Source of the DNA: a virus
Taxonomy: Duplodnaviria; Heunggongvirae; Uroviricota; Caudoviricetes
IMG/VR virus record: IMGVR_UViG_2713896781_000020
Reading direction: 5' to 3' (one strand)
Length of the DNA: 5,118 nucleotides
Shown here: positions 1 through 3,304 of the stretch, one piece after another
How positions within the stretch are numbered: the stretch's first letter is position 1
Layout of the letters: every line of letters begins with the position of its first letter
Notes under the pieces: model-generated
Databases searched by the model: none
Told to the model about the DNA's origin: nothing
What the model saw: only the letters and a program-made list of their open reading frames with translations
Made by a program: the position numbers and the translations under genes

Positions 1-37
1 TTATTGTTGTCAGCTTCCGGATAACGGGAGACGGGGT

Positions 38-253: not shown

Positions 254-308
254 NNNNNNNNNNNNNNNNNNNNNNNNNNNNNNNNNNNNNNNNNNNNNNN
301 NNNNNNNN
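254..308. other. Run of N (masked or unknown bases, 55 nt)
   Basis: Literal n characters in the sequence. The reading frame of the downstream ORF is open back into this run. Confidence 1.
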
Positions 309-341: not shown

Positions 342-953
342 ATGGATGTTGCTGCCGGGTTATGTGAAGGGAACGAACCGTTGCCGGAAAAGCGCCCCAT
401 AATTTTAGAGGCGCAGGATGTGTTGATAACCTACAAAGGAAAGCTACCGGGAAGAATTACTGGTTCTCTGAAGATGCCGCCGTCAACACTGCGGTCAGAA
501 AAAGAGGCGTCTTGTCTGCAGTCTGAGTACTCCATTACGGTTAAAAGTGCCGGAGAGGAAGGAAATAAACGTTATTTTATTGCGTCTGCACCTGATAAAG
601 ATCAGGAATGGGAGTGTAACCGGCCATCCTTTGTTGTATACGGAGATGGCGGGAAAATAACCATCTCAGAAAATGGGAAATTAACACCGCCATCGCACCA
701 GCATAGTGAGGCGCTCATTGAATTTGCCATTGATTACCTGAAGAACAATAAAAAGCAGGGGCTGATGAAGCGCATTGGTCGTTGCATGGGATATCTGCAG
801 GTAGCAGCTGAGATTGAAATGATGGCCAGTGGTGCTGACAATGATGCAGTTGTGCTGGAGGCTCTTCTGCGTGATTTTGATAATACGCCCTTTAAGAAAG
901 CACCTGTTGACTGGATGCAGCCGGGGATGACTTATCTGAAAGGGCGTATATAA
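342..953 (+). CDS. Hypothetical protein, at least 203 aa, unknown function; the true start is probably inside the upstream N run
   Basis: Long uninterrupted ORF on the same strand as the lysis genes, stop TAA at 951-953. The frame stays open upstream from 342 back to the N run at 308 (AEAKKQAKQFF precedes the first Met), and neither ATG 342 nor ATG 474 has a convincing Shine-Dalgarno. I recognise no family or catalytic motif. The segment looks more AT-rich than the flanking lysis genes. Confidence 0.55.
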   Translation: MDVAAGLCEGNEPLPEKRPIILEAQDVLITYKGKLPGRITGSLKMPPSTLRSEKEASCLQSEYSITVKSAGEEGNKRYFIASAPDKDQEWECNRPSFVVYGDGGKITISENGKLTPPSHQHSEALIEFAIDYLKNNKKQGLMKRIGRCMGYLQVAAEIEMMASGADNDAVVLEALLRDFDNTPFKKAPVDWMQPGMTYLKGRI

Positions 954-962
954 GGTGGCTCG

Positions 963-1277
963 TTATCTGTTGCTGGATAATCGACTGAAGATGCGTTCTT
1001 TTTGTGTTTTTGCGTAATGATTGTCCCACTCACAATCAAGGTAGCTTAATTCTTCATTCAACCAGTTATTTATATTGGTCTTAATACGCATAAGCATGGG
1101 CTGTGTTAATGCTCTGGCGATAATGCCGAGAGTCACAGGTGTGAGATGTCCATACGGCTCAGCCTGAATGGATTTTACTGCATCGTGTTCTTGTGGGAGG
1201 AGTAAGAGGCACTCTGATTTTACCCGCTCATTTATGGCTTGCAGGCATAAATCATAATTATGTTGATCGTTATGCAT
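963..1277 (-). CDS. Hypothetical protein, 104 aa, unknown function, antisense to the late operon
   Basis: ORF on the - strand with AGAGGA about 6 nt upstream of the ATG (minus-strand context GTAGAGGATTAACC-ATG). Its stop is only 9 bp from the stop of the convergent 342-953 ORF. No + strand ORF above the track threshold competes in this interval. The region looks AT-rich relative to neighbours. No family recognised. Confidence 0.5.
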   Translation of the reverse strand: MHNDQHNYDLCLQAINERVKSECLLLLPQEHDAVKSIQAEPYGHLTPVTLGIIARALTQPMLMRIKTNINNWLNEELSYLDCEWDNHYAKTQKERIFSRLSSNR

Positions 1278-1405: not shown

Positions 1406-1939
1406 ATGAACACCAAAATCAAATATGGCCTGTCGGCTGCCGTTCTGGCGTTGATTGCCATCGGTGCGCCTGCGCCTGATATTCTCGACCAGTTTCTGGA
1501 TGAAAAAGAAGGTAACCACACAACGGCATACCGTGATGGTGCGGGTATCTGGACCATCTGCCGCGGTGCCACAATGGTGGATGGTAAACCTGTTATTCCG
1601 GGCATGAAACTGTCGAAGGAAAAATGCGACCAGGTTAATGCCATTGAACGGGATAAGGCGCTGGCATGGGTGGAGCGCAATATTAAAGTTCCACTGACCG
1701 AACCACAGAAAGCGGGTATAGCGTCATTCTGTCCCTATAACATTGGCCCCGGTAAGTGTTTCCCGTCGACGTTTTATAAGCGGCTGAATGCTGGTGACCG
1801 CAGGGGAGCGTGTGAGGCGATTCGCTGGTGGATTAAGGACGGTGGCAGAGACTGCCGTATCCGCTCAAATAACTGTTATGGTCAGGTATCCCGTCGTGAC
1901 CAGGAGAGCGCGCTGGCGTGCTGGGGAATCGACAGATAA
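1406..1939 (+). CDS. R: SAR endolysin, T4-lysozyme-like muramidase (GH24)
   Basis: 177-aa ORF. The N-terminal Gly/Ala-rich weakly hydrophobic segment (GLSAAVLALIAIGAPAP) is typical of a signal-arrest-release domain. The catalytic triad E35-x8-D44-x5-T50 (EGNHTTAYRDGAGIWT) matches the T4 lysozyme E11/D20/T26 spacing. Overall it resembles, from memory, phage 21 R / P1 Lyz class endolysins found in Stx-converting lambdoid phages. No obvious Shine-Dalgarno upstream of the ATG. Confidence 0.93.
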   Translation: MNTKIKYGLSAAVLALIAIGAPAPDILDQFLDEKEGNHTTAYRDGAGIWTICRGATMVDGKPVIPGMKLSKEKCDQVNAIERDKALAWVERNIKVPLTEPQKAGIASFCPYNIGPGKCFPSTFYKRLNAGDRRGACEAIRWWIKDGGRDCRIRSNNCYGQVSRRDQESALACWGIDR

Positions 1940-2029: not shown

Positions 2030-2068
2030 AAAACCCCGTTTGTTGGCACCAAGCGGGGTTTTGTGTTT
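2030..2068. terminator. Bidirectional rho-independent terminator-like hairpin
   Basis: AAAACCCCG-TTG...CAA-G-CGGGGTTTT: stem CCCCG(2034-2038)/CGGGG(2054-2058) extended by TTG/CAA, followed by TTTTGTGTTT on the + strand. An A-run upstream gives a U-tract for the - strand as well. Confidence 0.6.
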
Positions 2069-2095
2069 CTGACCTTGAGTAAGGCAAGGGAGAAC

Positions 2096-2278
2096 ATGGC
2101 GAAGTATAAACGAATTCTGTTGAGGTTGACTATGAAAAATGGCCTTGAACTGAAAGCGTCTGTAACTGATGACATCAGCAGAGCACTGGCTTTTGCCATT
2201 AAGTGGGTGGCGGTCGGTGTTGCTGTGTCCCCGATGCTGTATGGGCTGGCAAAACTGGTCATTGCGTTGAAATCGTGA
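2096..2278 (+). CDS. Small hypothetical protein, 60 aa, with a C-terminal hydrophobic (putative membrane-anchor) segment
   Basis: ATG at 2096 preceded by AAGGGAG (2086-2092). Translation [60 protein letters not shown] has a basic amphipathic N-terminus and a roughly 22-residue hydrophobic C-terminus. The ORF track extends it to a GTG at 2063 inside the terminator tail, which I consider less likely. No family recognised. Confidence 0.4.
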
Positions 2279-2292
2279 AGGGAGGATTAAGC

Positions 2293-2424
2293 ATGTCAGA
2301 CAAACTCATAACGCTGGCGAAGATCCTCTGTGTAATTGTCGGCATTTCATTTTCACTAATGCTGGTTGCTCTTTTTCTTTCCATGGCCTGGATGATGTTG
2401 TCTTCGTCGGGGTTGCTGGGGTGA
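2293..2424 (+). CDS. Small hypothetical single-pass membrane protein, 43 aa
   Basis: ATG at 2293 with a strong Shine-Dalgarno AGGGAGG (2279-2285) 7 nt upstream. Translation [43 protein letters not shown] is one long hydrophobic helix. Its stop TGA (2422-2424) overlaps the GTG start of Rz (GTGA), implying translational coupling. Confidence 0.45.
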
Positions 2425-2894
2425 ACATAAACCGAATGCTTTCCGCGTTTATCGTTATTCTGCTGGTGGCCTGTGGTGCGCTGTGGATGGCAACAGACCA
2501 TTACCGTGATAACGCGATTACCTACAAAGCGCAGCGCGATAACAAAGCCAGTGAACTGAAGCTGGCGAACGCAACCATTACTGATATGCAGGTGCGCCAG
2601 CGCGATGTTGCTGCGCTCGATGCAAAATACTCGAGGGAATTATCCGATGCGAGAACTGAAAATGAAACTCTGCGCGCTGATGTTGCCGCTGGTCGTAAGC
2701 GCCTGCGGATCAACGCCACCTGTCCAGGCTCCGTGCGTGAAGCCCCCACCACCTCCGGCGTGGATAATGCAACCGGCCCCCAACTGGCAGACACCGTTAC
2801 ACGGGATTATTTCACCCTCAGAGAGCGGCTGATGACGATGCACAAGCAACTGGAAGGGGCACAGGACTATATCCGCACTCAGTGCCTGAAATAA
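2421..2894 (+). CDS. Rz: i-spanin (inner-membrane spanin subunit), lambda Rz-like
   Basis: Translation has an N-terminal TMD ([17 protein letters not shown]) followed by [14 protein letters not shown]...DAKY...RERL...QLEG, recognisably similar from memory to lambda Rz. The periplasmic part is coiled-coil-like and there is a C-terminal Cys. The start may be GTG 2421 (N-terminal length then matches lambda) or ATG 2436. Confidence 0.92.
2647..2832 (+). CDS. Rz1: o-spanin (outer-membrane lipoprotein spanin subunit), lambda Rz1-like, embedded in the +1 frame of Rz
   Basis: 61-aa ORF entirely inside Rz in a different frame. It has a signal peptide with lipobox LVVSAC, a proline-rich mature region ([14 protein letters not shown]...[12 protein letters not shown]) and a GAGGG Shine-Dalgarno-like element about 9 nt upstream. 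This closely resembles lambda Rz1 from memory. Confidence 0.88.
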
Positions 2895-2964: not shown

Positions 2965-3014
2965 NNNNNNNNNNNNNNNNNNNNNNNNNNNNNNNNNNNN
3001 NNNNNNNNNNNNNN
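2965..3014. other. Run of N (masked or unknown bases, 50 nt)
   Basis: Literal n characters. Confidence 1.
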
Positions 3015-3244: not shown

Positions 3245-3304
3245 NNNNNNNNNNNNNNNNNNNNNNNNNNNNNNNNNNNNNNNNNNNNNNNNNNNNNNNN
3301 NNNN
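3245..3304. other. Run of N (masked or unknown bases, 60 nt)
   Basis: Literal n characters. It is followed on the + strand by CGTCGC-TTTTTTTT (3317-3325), which could be the tail of a terminator whose stem is masked. Confidence 1.

What the first reader, a model, noticed from the sequence alone, without database searches (positions are those of the whole stretch)
2096..2424. Two tiny membrane-protein ORFs between the endolysin and Rz, translationally coupled to Rz
Between the endolysin stop (1939) and Rz (2421) there are two consecutive small ORFs with good ribosome-binding sites. The first is 60 aa with a C-terminal hydrophobic anchor, the second 43 aa and essentially one transmembrane helix. 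The second ends in a GTGA overlap with the Rz start. They sit immediately downstream of a bidirectional terminator. This spot is where some lambdoid phages carry other cargo; I recall an ant-like gene in some Stx phages, unverified. Small single-TMD proteins inside a lysis cassette could be lysis-timing modulators (antiholin-like or pinholin partners), membrane-depolarising toxins or superinfection-exclusion factors. Nothing here matches a family I can name.
Basis: partly seen in the sequence, partly recalled or inferred. Interest (0 to 1): 0.5.

Follow-up and report, generated by a model that had tools for sequence, protein, structure and literature searches.

The report
Tiny membrane-protein genes before phage Rz
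Two very small, conserved genes for inner-membrane proteins sit between the endolysin and spanin genes of this E. coli prophage; relatives are in about a third of complete E. coli genomes and many Shiga-toxin phages, often unannotated, and their function is untested.

Summary
ORF1 (2096-2278, 60 aa) and ORF2 (2293-2424, 43 aa) follow a conserved bidirectional terminator hairpin (2030-2062). Both have Shine-Dalgarno sites, and ORF2 ends in GTGA at the first in-frame start of Rz.

Both are real genes. ORF1 has dN/dS 0.20 in frame against 1.05 and 3.5 off frame. ORF2 has 0.27-0.47 against 0.66-1.65. They are intact in 110/114 and 132/139 sampled copies. RefSeq calls both hypothetical; PHROGs places them in unknown-function families; no Pfam, NCBIfam or PADLOC match; no paper found.

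In all 150 related loci sampled, the terminator-to-Rz gap holds at least one micro-membrane ORF abutting Rz. I saw three sequence families in six arrangements. ORF2 relatives occur in 276 phage records, mostly Stx phages and mostly unannotated.

ORF1's family spans Enterobacterales. It usually precedes Rz, beside four holin/endolysin combinations, but also occurs in baseplate and post-tail-fibre positions. A terminator-like hairpin lay upstream in all ten contexts examined.

No sense-strand promoter was found, so expression is probably late and read into Rz. Best guess, unproven: dispensable accessory membrane proteins that tune lysis. The main rival is moron-type cargo. Moderate interest.

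The parts
1406..1939 (+). Endolysin R, a lysozyme with an N-terminal SAR-like hydrophobic segment. It marks the upstream edge of the slot.
   Evidence: PF00959 E 2.8e-25 and phrog_7 endolysin. The N-terminal window 9-27 has Kyte-Doolittle 1.88. RefSeq calls it 'lysozyme'.
2030..2062 (.). Bidirectional intrinsic-terminator hairpin, with an A-run 5' and a T-run 3'.
   Evidence: 13 pairs, dG -18.9 kcal/mol, z -2.6. Four pairs show compensatory changes across 8 loci. A hairpin of this type lay upstream of the ORF1-family gene in all ten contexts examined.
2081..2092 (+). Shine-Dalgarno region of ORF1 (AAGGCAAGGGAG).
   Evidence: Anti-SD duplex -7.2 kcal/mol, against a background mean of -2.2 (sd 2.7).
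2096..2278 (+). ORF1, 60 aa: a basic N-terminal segment, the MKNGLE..AP motif, and a C-terminal transmembrane anchor. It is WP_001151823.1-like and falls in phrog_1115.
   Evidence: - Coordinates and annotation.
- phrog_1115 match, E 5.7e-41.
- dN/dS 0.20 in frame against 1.05 and 3.5 off frame; variable sites by codon position 19/9/41.
- 110/114 sampled copies intact.
- AlphaFold gives helices 2-15 and 21-59, pLDDT 73.
2132..2134 (+). Internal in-frame ATG (Met13) with its own GAGG SD at 2122-2125. It is a possible second start giving a 48-aa form.
   Evidence: SD -6.3 kcal/mol. Many database homologues are called from this Met. The Yersinia copy has only this start.
2103..2132 (-). Sigma-70-like site on the minus strand: -35 TAGTCA, 18 nt spacer, -10 TATACT. 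It lies inside ORF1 codons 3-13. It could drive a roughly 75-nt antisense RNA ending at the hairpin. This is a lead only.
   Evidence: It is the only promoter-like site found in 1900-2960, and one is expected by chance. The -10 is kept as TATACT or TATAAT in diverged members, but it coincides with conserved Lys-Tyr-Lys codons. The predicted RNA folds as a 5' hairpin, then the terminator, then a U-run.
2278..2286 (+). Shine-Dalgarno of ORF2 (AAGGGAGGA). Its first base is the last base of ORF1's TGA stop.
   Evidence: -11.3 kcal/mol; only 3.7% of window positions reach -8 or stronger.
2293..2424 (+). ORF2, 43 aa, one transmembrane helix. It is WP_001280932.1-like and falls in phrog_4906.
   Evidence: - Coordinates and annotation.
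- phrog_4906 match, E 2.1e-23.
- AlphaFold gives a single helix 2-38, pLDDT 88.8.
- dN/dS is 0.47 pooled among close copies, 0.27 against the 69%-identical L220 copy (Fisher p 0.001), and 0.43 among 4 diverged alleles; off-frame values are 0.66-1.65.
- 132/139 sampled copies intact.
2421..2894 (+). Rz, the i-spanin. The start is either GTG 2421 (GTGA overlap with the ORF2 stop) or ATG 2436.
   Evidence: PF03245 E 1.6e-46 and phrog_13 Rz-like spanin. RefSeq starts it at the ATG that corresponds to 2436. The ancestral ATG is ATA at 2427-2429 (one search compared).
2647..2832 (+). Rz1, the o-spanin lipoprotein, embedded in the +1 frame of Rz.
   Evidence: The ORF reads [20 protein letters not shown]..., with a lipobox. 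The homologous 61-aa ORF is present in L084.

Best explanation
ORF1 and ORF2 are real genes for tiny cytoplasmic-membrane proteins.

Anatomy. ORF1 has a basic N-terminal segment of about 25-30 residues, probably cytoplasmic, followed by a C-terminal transmembrane anchor. ORF2 is little more than one transmembrane helix.

Setting. They are one of several interchangeable fillings of a fixed slot in P21/Stx-type lysis cassettes. The slot begins at a conserved intrinsic terminator after the endolysin gene and ends at the start codon of the i-spanin gene Rz. Every filling seen contains at least one micro-membrane ORF whose stop abuts the Rz start.

Expression (inferred). No sense-strand promoter was found behind the terminator. 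So the genes should be transcribed only when Q-modified, terminator-resistant RNA polymerase reads the late operon. Ribosomes finishing ORF2 would then re-initiate at Rz.

Function (inferred from context only). The most likely role is as dispensable accessory components of the lysis module. They would act in the inner membrane late in infection and tune the membrane step of lysis: holin or pinholin triggering, endolysin release, or spanin insertion. They are not essential lysis proteins.

What is shown: coding status, membrane character, conservation, position, and the tight junction with Rz. What is inferred: late-only expression, translational coupling, and any effect on lysis.
For: Coding status
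- ORF1 has dN/dS 0.20 in frame, against 1.05 and 3.5 off frame.
- ORF2 has dN/dS 0.27-0.47 in frame, against 0.66-1.65 off frame.
- The frames are intact in 110/114 and 132/139 copies.
- Both have strong SD sites.

Membrane character
- Hydropathy and charge distribution.
- AlphaFold helices.

Slot architecture
- 150 of 150 loci anchored on the terminator have at least one micro-membrane ORF ending 0-12 nt from the Rz start, in six arrangements.
- Stx2a phage EH2201, phage GER2, phi24B and Salmonella phage SPN3UB all fit the pattern.

Link to the lysis module
- ORF1-family genes sit directly before Rz next to an HP1-type holin with lysozyme, a P21-type holin with lysozyme plus ant, a lambda-S-type holin with a soluble GH19 endolysin, and HP1-type holin with lysozyme and an HNH gene.
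- The ORF1-Rz pair survives in a Yersinia prophage remnant.
- The ORF1-ORF2 pair is kept together in a GH108-endolysin cassette at only 69% (ORF2) nucleotide identity.

Late expression
- There is no plus-strand sigma-70-like site in 1900-2960, and only 33 nt separate the hairpin from the ATG.

Precedent
- Mu gp25 releasin is a membrane-tethered accessory lysis protein (PMC9239132).
- From my own knowledge: P2 lysA between the endolysin and spanin genes, P1 lydB/C/D, and T4 rI are accessory lysis regulators.
Against: - There is no functional data of any kind, and no similarity to any holin, antiholin or releasin family.
- ORF1-family genes also occur outside lysis cassettes. They lie between the baseplate spike and gp25-like genes in Klebsiella and Serratia myovirus prophages. 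They lie after tail-fibre assembly genes in E. coli and Enterobacter. One lies beside a DUF1353 gene.
- An A-type relative sits among tail-region small ORFs in a Pseudomonas phage.
- The same slot also takes unrelated cargo: an ant-like gene and a DNA methyltransferase.
- Frameshifted copies exist next to intact lysis genes.
- Lambda and the K-12 Qin prophage have R overlapping Rz with nothing between them, so the genes are not needed for lysis as such.
- ORF2's constraint is only moderate.
Confidence: 0.4

Rival explanations
1. Moron-type cargo unrelated to lysis. The micro-membrane proteins would serve the prophage or host in another way, for example superinfection exclusion at the inner membrane or some other membrane phenotype. 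They would sit before Rz only because that junction tolerates insertions.
For: - The slot is variable and also carries ant-like and methyltransferase genes.
- ORF1- and A-family genes recur at classic moron positions: after tail-fibre assembly genes, inside tail or baseplate operons, and at prophage ends.
- Small single-pass inner-membrane proteins are typical exclusion factors (my own knowledge, e.g. HK97 gp15).
Against: - No promoter was found between the hairpin and the ORF in the window.
- By eye I saw none in the other contexts.
- A terminator lies upstream rather than downstream, so expression from a repressed prophage is hard to see.
- Base composition is not atypical.
- Most contexts are directly before Rz.
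Confidence: 0.28
2. Type-I-toxin-like unit. ORF1 would be a toxic hydrophobic peptide. Its translation start would be masked by a short cis-antisense RNA. That RNA would fire from a promoter inside ORF1 codons 3-13 and end at the bidirectional hairpin. The hairpin would then belong to the cassette, which would explain why it always travels with the ORF.
For: - The only sigma-70-like site in 1900-2960 is on the minus strand at 2132-2103. It points at the ORF1 start and SD, and then at the hairpin.
- The -10 is TATACT in most diverged members and TATAAT in Klebsiella. The -35 is 4-5 of 6 at an 18-nt spacing.
- The predicted 79-nt RNA has an sRNA-like shape.
- A hairpin lay upstream in all ten contexts examined.
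Against: - One such site is expected by chance in this region.
- The conserved bases coincide with conserved Lys-Tyr-Lys and Leu-Thr-Met codons.
- Synonymous divergence there (pS 0.50) is only slightly below the downstream region (0.65).
- A-type cassettes lack a comparable site, judged by eye.
- There is no match to Hok/Gef or any other toxin family and no Rfam family.
Confidence: 0.1
3. Translational relay only. The ORFs would exist to carry ribosomes from behind the terminator hairpin to the Rz start. Alternatively, translating a membrane peptide would bring the mRNA to the membrane. In either case the peptides would have no function of their own.
For: - The stop of the last micro-ORF lies 0-12 nt from the start of the next gene in every context that has a downstream gene, whether that gene is Rz, a gp25-like baseplate gene or a DUF1353 gene.
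- In this window Rz has lost its ancestral ATG and has only weak SD sites of its own, -5.7 and -6.0 kcal/mol.
Against: - Purifying selection acts on the peptide sequences.
- The MKNGLE.DAP motif is conserved across genera.
- Three unrelated families are all transmembrane.
- Up to four such ORFs occur in series where one would do.
- Copies exist with no downstream gene.
Confidence: 0.1
4. Not genes: chance ORFs, or a decayed remnant of a longer gene.
For: - The ORFs are very short.
- About 3-5% of copies are frameshifted.
- Some database 'proteins' across this region are mis-framed chimeras such as P0081/P0088 and phrog_3246.
Against: - Selection is specific to these frames.
- Length, start and stop are conserved across hundreds of database clusters.
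- Both have their own strong SD sites.
- The ORF1-ORF2 pair is conserved at 69% (ORF2) nucleotide identity.
Confidence: 0.03

Closest known systems
Holin/antiholin pairs made from dual starts (lambda S105/S107; phage 21 S68/S71 pinholin)
   Same: These are small inner-membrane proteins encoded in the lysis cassette and expressed late. ORF1 has two in-frame starts, each with an SD (2096 and 2132). The longer form adds four or five positive charges at the N-terminus, which is how S107 and S71 differ from the holin forms (my own knowledge for lambda and phage 21).
   Different: There is no sequence match to any holin family. Each ORF has a single transmembrane segment. Neither has a charged cytoplasmic C-terminal tail. 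The cassette already has its own S21-type holin at 38-253. The dual start is not demonstrated.
Accessory lysis regulators encoded beside endolysin and spanin genes (P2 LysA; P1 LydB/LydC/LydD; T4 RI)
   Same: They are non-essential membrane proteins in or near lysis cassettes that shift lysis timing. P2 lysA occupies the same relative position, between the endolysin and the spanin genes (my own knowledge; the P1 system is described in PMC9025707, listed).
   Different: The sequences are unrelated, and these ORFs are much smaller with one transmembrane segment (LysA has four). No timing phenotype is known for ORF1 or ORF2.
Releasin (Mu gp25, DUF2730)
   Same: Releasin is a membrane-tethered protein with a small cytoplasmic part that acts on SAR endolysin release. 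Its family also occurs with cytoplasmic endolysins (PMC9239132). Similarly, the ORF1 family occurs with both SAR-type and soluble endolysins.
   Different: There is no DUF2730 match. ORF1's anchor is C-terminal, whereas gp25's is N-terminal. This cassette has a pinholin, so a releasin is not required.
Type I toxins (Hok/Gef, TisB, Ldr, and similar)
   Same: They are hydrophobic peptides under 60 aa, common in prophages, whose translation start is controlled by RNA structure or antisense RNA. A possible antisense promoter and terminator flank the ORF1 start.
   Different: There is no family match. The antisense promoter is not above chance. The genes sit inside a late operon rather than forming a stand-alone locus.
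Phage morons that encode small inner-membrane proteins (e.g. HK97 gp15 superinfection exclusion)
   Same: Both show variable presence among otherwise similar phages, insertion between late genes, and single-pass membrane products.
   Different: Morons carry their own promoter and a downstream terminator and are expressed in lysogens. Here no promoter was found, the hairpin is upstream, and composition is ordinary.

Membership tests
PHROG phrog_1115 (unknown function) | Profile match over the full length | tested here: met
   ORF1 matches at E 5.7e-41, residues 1-60 against profile positions 8-67 of 67. It also matches phrog_4493 at E 3.1e-29.
PHROG phrog_4906 (unknown function) | Profile match over the full length | tested here: met
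   ORF2 matches at E 2.1e-23, residues 1-43 against profile positions 7-49 of 49.
Holin (including the S21 pinholin, PF04971) | Sequence match to a holin family | tested here: not met
   There is no Pfam, NCBIfam or PHROG lysis-category hit for ORF1 or ORF2. The window's own holin at 38-253 does hit PF04971, E 9e-33.
Holin (including the S21 pinholin, PF04971) | Small protein with at least one transmembrane domain | tested here: met
   Kyte-Doolittle 1.88 for ORF1 and 2.89 for ORF2 over 19 residues. AlphaFold predicts helices.
Holin (including the S21 pinholin, PF04971) | Highly charged hydrophilic cytoplasmic C-terminal domain | tested here: not met
   The C-flank is 4 aa with one Lys in ORF1. 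In ORF2 it is 14 uncharged residues.
Holin (including the S21 pinholin, PF04971) | Dual-start motif giving two products | tested here: inconclusive
   ORF1 has ATG 2096 (SD -7.2) and an in-frame ATG 2132 (SD -6.3). Whether both are used is unknown. ORF2 has a single start.
Holin (including the S21 pinholin, PF04971) | Lethal, energy-poison-triggerable membrane permeabilisation that sets lysis time | not testable with these tools
   This needs induction and expression experiments.
Releasin (Mu gp25, DUF2730) | DUF2730 profile match | tested here: not met
   No Pfam hit for ORF1, and only a sub-threshold DUF3930 hit for ORF2.
Releasin (Mu gp25, DUF2730) | N-terminal transmembrane domain tethering a cytoplasmic domain | tested here: not met
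   ORF1's transmembrane segment is C-terminal (residues about 30-58) and its soluble part is N-terminal.
Releasin (Mu gp25, DUF2730) | Required for, or stimulates, SAR endolysin release | not testable with these tools
   The function is defined genetically in PMC9239132.
Type I toxin-antitoxin | Hydrophobic peptide under about 60 aa | tested here: met
   ORF1 is 60 aa and ORF2 is 43 aa, and both have transmembrane segments.
Type I toxin-antitoxin | Antisense or overlapping sRNA gene with its own promoter and terminator | tested here: inconclusive
   A minus-strand -35/-10 lies at 2132-2103 and the bidirectional hairpin follows. One such site is expected by chance, and the conserved bases coincide with conserved codons.
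Type I toxin-antitoxin | Match to a known toxin family (Hok/Gef PF01848 and others) or a known antitoxin RNA (Rfam) | tested here: not met
   There is no Pfam hit and no Rfam family at E of 1 or below apart from a chance terminator-shaped hit.
Moron | Present or absent among otherwise closely related phages | tested here: met
   Six different fillings of the same slot occur in loci that share the flanking terminator and Rz.
Moron | Own promoter upstream and terminator downstream of the ORF | tested here: not met
   There is no plus-strand promoter-like site in 1900-2960. The only hairpin is upstream, and ORF2 runs straight into Rz.
Moron | Base composition unlike the neighbours | tested here: not met
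   GC is 0.45-0.50 across 2050-2424, against 0.46-0.55 in R and the 5' half of Rz.
Moron | Expressed from the repressed prophage | not testable with these tools
   This needs transcriptome or translatome data from lysogens.
Spanin components (i-spanin Rz, o-spanin Rz1) | For an i-spanin, an N-terminal transmembrane domain plus a long periplasmic coiled-coil domain; for an o-spanin, a lipobox | tested here: not met
   Neither ORF has a periplasmic domain: the C-flanks are 4 and 14 aa. Neither has a lipobox (sequence). They do not hit the Rz profiles that the neighbouring gene hits.

The most novel reading that the evidence does not exclude
The micro-membrane ORFs before Rz could be a previously unrecognised functional class of the lysis pathway. 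The class would comprise the ORF1 family, the ORF2 family and the 45-aa A family. It would be present in most Stx phages in the collection and about a third of complete E. coli genomes.

For example, ORF1 might be made in two forms from two starts. The long form is highly basic and would be N-in. The short form would have the opposite or an ambiguous topology. Together they would act as a clock modifier on holin triggering or on spanin activation.

If so, these genes would influence when Stx phages lyse and release toxin.
Probability: 0.15. Interest if true: 0.7.

Novelty: new member of a known kind. Interest (0 to 1): 0.4.

Why it matters
If these proteins tune lysis, they are an overlooked part of the lysis cassette of Shiga-toxin phages. 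In those phages, lysis timing governs toxin and phage release. Most GenBank Stx-phage records do not even annotate them.

The question is directly testable. Inducible phages that carry exactly this pair grow on E. coli K-12 and E. coli C (PhiR5_2 and the PhiR12 series).

More generally, the unit 'terminator, then micro-membrane ORF, then tight junction to the next late gene' recurs in lysis, baseplate and tail-fibre regions across Enterobacterales. That is a tidy case for studying how very small genes insert into phage late operons without breaking them.

If they turn out to be ordinary cargo, the practical gain is better annotation of a few hundred phage records.

Tried and rejected
- ORF2 as a duplicated Rz transmembrane segment. 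The KILCVIV / RVLCVVI resemblance is not significant: local alignment against 500 shuffles gave p 0.03-0.99 over six pairs. Rejected.
- Known RNA element around the hairpin. Rfam gave only a chance terminator-shaped hit to the rimP leader, 25.6 bits against a gathering score of 47. Rejected.
- Defence-system protein. PADLOC gave nothing for ORF1, ORF2, the A type or the 50-aa variant.
- Foreign composition. None was seen.
- Species range through the GTDB representative genomes. The alignment-based scan confirmed none of its candidates. A degenerate DNA pattern hit only two Clostridia by chance. The range came instead from protein searches.
- Nucleotide-level constraint on ORF1 codons 3-16, as expected for an embedded antisense promoter or internal start region. 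Synonymous divergence is 0.50 there against 0.65 downstream, too small a difference to decide.
- GTG 2063 as the ORF1 start (71 aa). It abuts the terminator stem, and its apparent SD is the stem itself. Homologues supply starts at the 2096-equivalent position from five different upstream sequences. Rejected.
- Literature. Searches for peptide strings, accession numbers, lysis-cassette terms and Stx-phage terms found no paper that mentions these ORFs.
- One dN/dS run included a copy offset by one codon. It was dropped and the run repeated.
Full report
**What the window is**

The window is the late lysis region of a lambdoid E. coli prophage. The 491 nt around the finding are 99.8% identical to many E. 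coli chromosomes. The gene order is as follows:
- an S21-type class II holin (38-253, PF04971);
- two inserted ORFs of unknown function (342-953 on the plus strand, 963-1277 on the minus strand);
- a lysozyme with an N-terminal SAR-like segment (1406-1939);
- the region of the finding;
- Rz with embedded Rz1 (2421/2436-2894 and 2647-2832);
- further downstream, a YlcI/YnfO-like gene and the terminase genes.

**Checking the observation**

- The hairpin at 2030-2062 has 13 pairs and dG -18.9 kcal/mol. An A-run lies 5' and a T-run 3', so it can terminate transcription in both directions. Across eight diverged loci the stem is kept, with compensatory changes in four pairs.
- ORF1 (ATG 2096 to TGA 2278, 60 aa) has a purine-rich SD, -7.2 kcal/mol against the 16S tail.
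- ORF2 (ATG 2293 to TGA 2424, 43 aa) has a very strong SD, AAGGGAGGA at -11.3. The background mean is -2.2 and 3.7% of positions reach -8.
- ORF1 has a hydrophobic C-terminal segment and 8 Lys+Arg before it. ORF2 is essentially one helix. AlphaFold gives helix 2-38 at pLDDT 88.8 for ORF2. For ORF1 it gives helices 2-15 and 21-59 at pLDDT 73.
- GTG 2421 overlaps the ORF2 stop as GTGA.

There is one qualification. In related cassettes Rz starts ATGAACCG, and the corresponding codon here is ATA (2427-2429). The true start is therefore either GTG 2421 or ATG 2436, which RefSeq uses. Both have only modest SD sites, -5.7 and -6.0. That makes dependence on ORF2 translation plausible.

**Are they genes?**

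Yes for ORF1, and very probably for ORF2.

I used 24 unique DNA copies of ORF1, drawn from IMG/VR and genome loci.
- Pooled dN/dS is 0.20 in frame, against 1.05 and 3.5 in the other two frames.
- Variable sites fall 19/9/41 by codon position.

ORF2 is less constrained.
- Among close copies dN/dS is 0.47, against 0.66 and 1.26 off frame.
- Against a copy only 69% identical in DNA (L220) it is 0.27, against 0.92 and 1.65 off frame. The excess of synonymous changes gives Fisher p 0.001.
- Among four diverged alleles it is 0.43, against 0.80 and 1.13.

The frames are intact in 110 of 114 ORF1 copies and 132 of 139 ORF2 copies. The remainder carry 1-2 nt insertions or an 11-nt deletion.

RefSeq already annotates both as hypothetical proteins, WP_001151823.1 and WP_001280932.1. 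PHROGs places them in unknown-function families phrog_1115/4493 and phrog_4906. Pfam, NCBIfam and PADLOC give nothing. Six literature searches, and a reading of a survey of Stx-phage lysis cassettes (PMC8136144), found no mention of them.

**How common**

- DNA matching the ORF2 region is in 1750 of 5426 complete E. coli genomes, with up to 11 copies per genome.
- By tblastn, ORF2 relatives are in 276 phage records. These are mostly Stx1- and Stx2-converting phages, including phi24B, Min27 and P27. In most rows listed nothing is annotated under the match.
- The ORF1 family in the narrow sense is confined to Escherichia and Salmonella.
- A profile search widens it to 230 clusters, all hypothetical. 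Named sources include Klebsiella, Serratia, Yersinia and Enterobacter.
- Family members share a basic x-Y-K/R-R-hydrophobic stretch, an MKNGLE.DAP motif and a transmembrane segment. Many end in IRWW.

**The slot**

I anchored on the conserved hairpin and collected 162 oriented segments. In 150 of them Rz lay downstream. The distance from the terminator to Rz falls into a few classes, and each class contains micro-membrane ORFs.

| Gap length (nt) | n | Content |
|---|---|---|
| 182-191 | 30 | one 45-aa 'A-type' ORF (phrog_6632), as in Stx2a phage EH2201 |
| 221-222 | 22 | one 50-aa GTG-start paralogue of ORF1, as in phage GER2 |
| 324 | 2 | ORF1 plus a 28-aa paralogue |
| 373-386 | 57 | ORF1 plus ORF2, the window's type |
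| 528-529 | 36 | a 44-aa A-type ORF, then ORF2, then the C-terminal two-thirds of ORF1, then the 28-aa paralogue |
| 1310-1312 | 3 | ORF1, ORF2 and a 311-aa DNA methyltransferase |

In every class the last ORF stops 0-12 nt from the Rz start. All of these peptides have a 19-residue window above Kyte-Doolittle 1.8. In all but the 28-aa paralogue the positive charge lies on the N-terminal side.

In phi24B/933W-type phages, and in O111 and related E. coli prophages, the order is R, ant-like gene, ORF2-like gene, Rz.

K-12 Qin has rrrQ overlapping rzpQ with nothing between them. The ORFs are therefore accessory.

**Where the ORF1 family sits in other genomes**

It lies directly before Rz in several Salmonella prophages:
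- with an HP1-type holin and a lysozyme (L208, L229);
- with an HP1-type holin, a lysozyme and an HNH gene (L235);
- with a P21-type holin, a lysozyme and an ant-like gene (L210);
- with a lambda-S-type holin and a soluble GH19 endolysin that has no N-terminal hydrophobic segment (L211).

A Yersinia enterocolitica prophage remnant keeps only the ORF1-family gene and Rz. An E. coli prophage with a GH108 endolysin keeps ORF1 and ORF2 together. There they are followed by a 60-aa lipoprotein instead of Rz.

The family is therefore not tied to SAR endolysins or pinholins.

It also occurs outside lysis cassettes:
- between the baseplate spike and the gp25-like gene in Klebsiella and Serratia myovirus prophages;
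- after tail-fibre assembly genes in E. coli and Enterobacter;
- between a NanS-like esterase gene and a DUF1353 gene in Salmonella.

An A-type relative lies among small ORFs after a tail K-like gene in a Pseudomonas phage.

In every case the gene is on the same strand as the late genes. In all ten ORF1-family contexts I examined, a strong AAAACCCCG...CGGGGTTTT-type hairpin lay roughly 30-110 nt upstream. Where a gene follows, it starts within a few bases of the stop.

**Start of ORF1**

Five unrelated upstream sequences each supply an in-frame start with a good SD at the position equivalent to 2096:
- ATG in E. coli;
- GTG overlapping the stop of an 8-codon leader ORF in Salmonella and in GER2-type copies;
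- GTG in Klebsiella;
- ATG in the tail-fibre copies;
- GTG in the NanS-linked copies.

Codons 3-16 show pN/pS 0.30, so the basic N-terminal extension is translated. Met13 (2132) also has its own GAGG SD at -6.3, and it is the only start left in the Yersinia copy. Two products are therefore possible but not shown.

**How it most likely works**

Shown:
- two conserved genes for single-pass inner-membrane proteins lie in a fixed slot;
- they sit behind a conserved terminator;
- they end at the Rz start.

Inferred:
- Only 33 nt separate the hairpin from the ORF1 ATG, and there is no plus-strand promoter-like site in 1900-2960. Transcription must therefore come through the terminator. In a lambdoid late operon that means Q-modified polymerase (established lambda biology, my own knowledge).
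- The proteins would then appear together with holin, endolysin and spanin.
- Ribosomes leaving ORF2 would feed Rz.

On context I rate 'dispensable accessory lysis-module proteins acting in the inner membrane' as the most likely role, at about 0.4. There are precedents: P2 LysA, P1 LydB/C/D, T4 RI and Mu releasin (PMC9239132).

Rival readings:
- Moron-type cargo, for example an exclusion factor, at about 0.28. This is the main rival, because the family recurs at tail-gene positions and the slot accepts unrelated cargo.
- A type-I-toxin-like unit with a cis-antisense RNA, at about 0.1. The RNA would fire from the minus-strand site at 2132-2103 and end at the hairpin. The idea would explain why the hairpin travels with the gene, but the site is not above chance.
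- A pure translational relay, at about 0.1. This is unlikely given selection on the peptides and the use of up to four such ORFs in series.
- Not genes, at about 0.03.

**Comparison with the known, and novelty**

The ORFs are members of PHROG families of unknown function and of nothing else. They fail the sequence tests, and some of the architecture tests, for holins, releasin, type I toxins, spanins and classical morons (see the membership table). What they resemble functionally remains open.

They are already present in databases as hypothetical proteins. New here:
- their genuineness is quantified;
- they form an interchangeable set of three micro-membrane-protein families filling one slot before Rz;
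- ORF2-like genes are widespread and largely unannotated in Stx phages;
- ORF1 has a possible dual start;
- the hairpin is constantly associated with the ORF1 family.

I file this as a new member of a known kind, namely small accessory membrane proteins or cargo of phage late operons. Interest is moderate, 0.4. It is not very surprising to a lysis specialist, but it is cheap to test and relevant to Stx-phage lysis timing.

Noticed in passing
window 2427-2429: The codon that corresponds to the Rz start ATG in related cassettes (ATGAACCG...) is ATA here, and in the whole 373-nt gap class. Rz must then start at GTG 2421 or ATG 2436, and both have only modest SD sites.
   Followed up: partly
window 2159-2161: ORF1 codon 22 is TCT (Ser). 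At least 90% of family members have Pro there, within the conserved ..AP.. motif. The best genome matches differ from the window by a single base in 491 nt, so this is probably a private substitution at a conserved site.
   Followed up: partly
window 2103-2132 (minus strand), with 2020-2096: A sigma-70-like -35/-10 (TAGTCA, 18 nt, TATACT) lies inside ORF1 codons 3-13 and points leftwards. The RNA it predicts is about 75 nt. It would cover the ORF1 start and SD and end at the bidirectional hairpin and U-run. It is not above chance on its own.
   Followed up: partly
L084 3786-4353; the 528-nt class: A common alternative filling has four micro-ORFs in series: a 44-aa A-type ORF, ORF2, a 5'-truncated ORF1 joined at codon 22 just after the ORF2 stop, and a 28-aa ORF1 paralogue. 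In L084 an extra T in a T-run fuses ORF2 to the truncated ORF1. The 83-90 aa database 'proteins' and phrog_3246 look like mis-framed calls across this junction.
   Followed up: partly
L207/L211/L229 upstream of the ORF1 homologue; L206 around 2650-2685: In Salmonella and GER2-type copies an 8-codon leader ORF (MCREACSL or MGREVLSL) with a strong SD precedes the gene. Its TGA overlaps the GTG start as GTGA. A short AGGGA/TCCCT inverted repeat could sequester the second SD (GGAGG). This looks like leader-dependent translational control. The window's version has lost it.
   Followed up: no
L077 and L116 (1310-nt class): A 311-aa DNA methyltransferase gene is inserted between ORF2 and Rz. Its last codons (..MVVI) run into the Rz start.
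   Followed up: no
L220 1653-1835: In a prophage with a GH108 endolysin, ORF1 and ORF2 are followed by a 60-aa predicted lipoprotein where Rz would be. It has an LVGC lipobox and a mature part of about 30 aa with three Cys. Its start lies 4 nt after the ORF2 stop. No Rz is annotated nearby.
   Followed up: no
window 342-953 (+) and 963-1277 (-): Two ORFs of unknown function are inserted between the holin and endolysin genes. The first is a 203-aa ORF combining a DUF1327/YdfR-like fragment with phrog_1085; RefSeq marks the YdfR-like part as a pseudogene in the near-identical genome. The second is a 104-aa ORF on the opposite strand (phrog_1853).
   Followed up: no
L225 2501-2671; L234 2501-2770: ORF1-family genes sit between the baseplate spike gene and the gp25-like (sheath-initiator) gene of myovirus prophages in Klebsiella and Serratia. 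In L225 a terminator-like hairpin lies upstream, although essential baseplate genes lie downstream. That hairpin must be leaky or overridden there.
   Followed up: partly
L232 1759-2087 (Pseudomonas phage YMC11/02/R656): A relative of the 45-aa A-type ORF (50% identity) lies after a tail K-like gene. By eye from the translated frames, a terminator-like hairpin appears to precede it, and a further 38-aa hydrophobic ORF follows.
   Followed up: no
window 254-308, 2965-3014, 3246-3304: Three runs of N mask parts of the window. Coordinates relative to the near-identical genome L001 shift by 111 nt between the holin and ORF1. So sequence length differs somewhere in that interval, which includes the first N run.
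   Followed up: no
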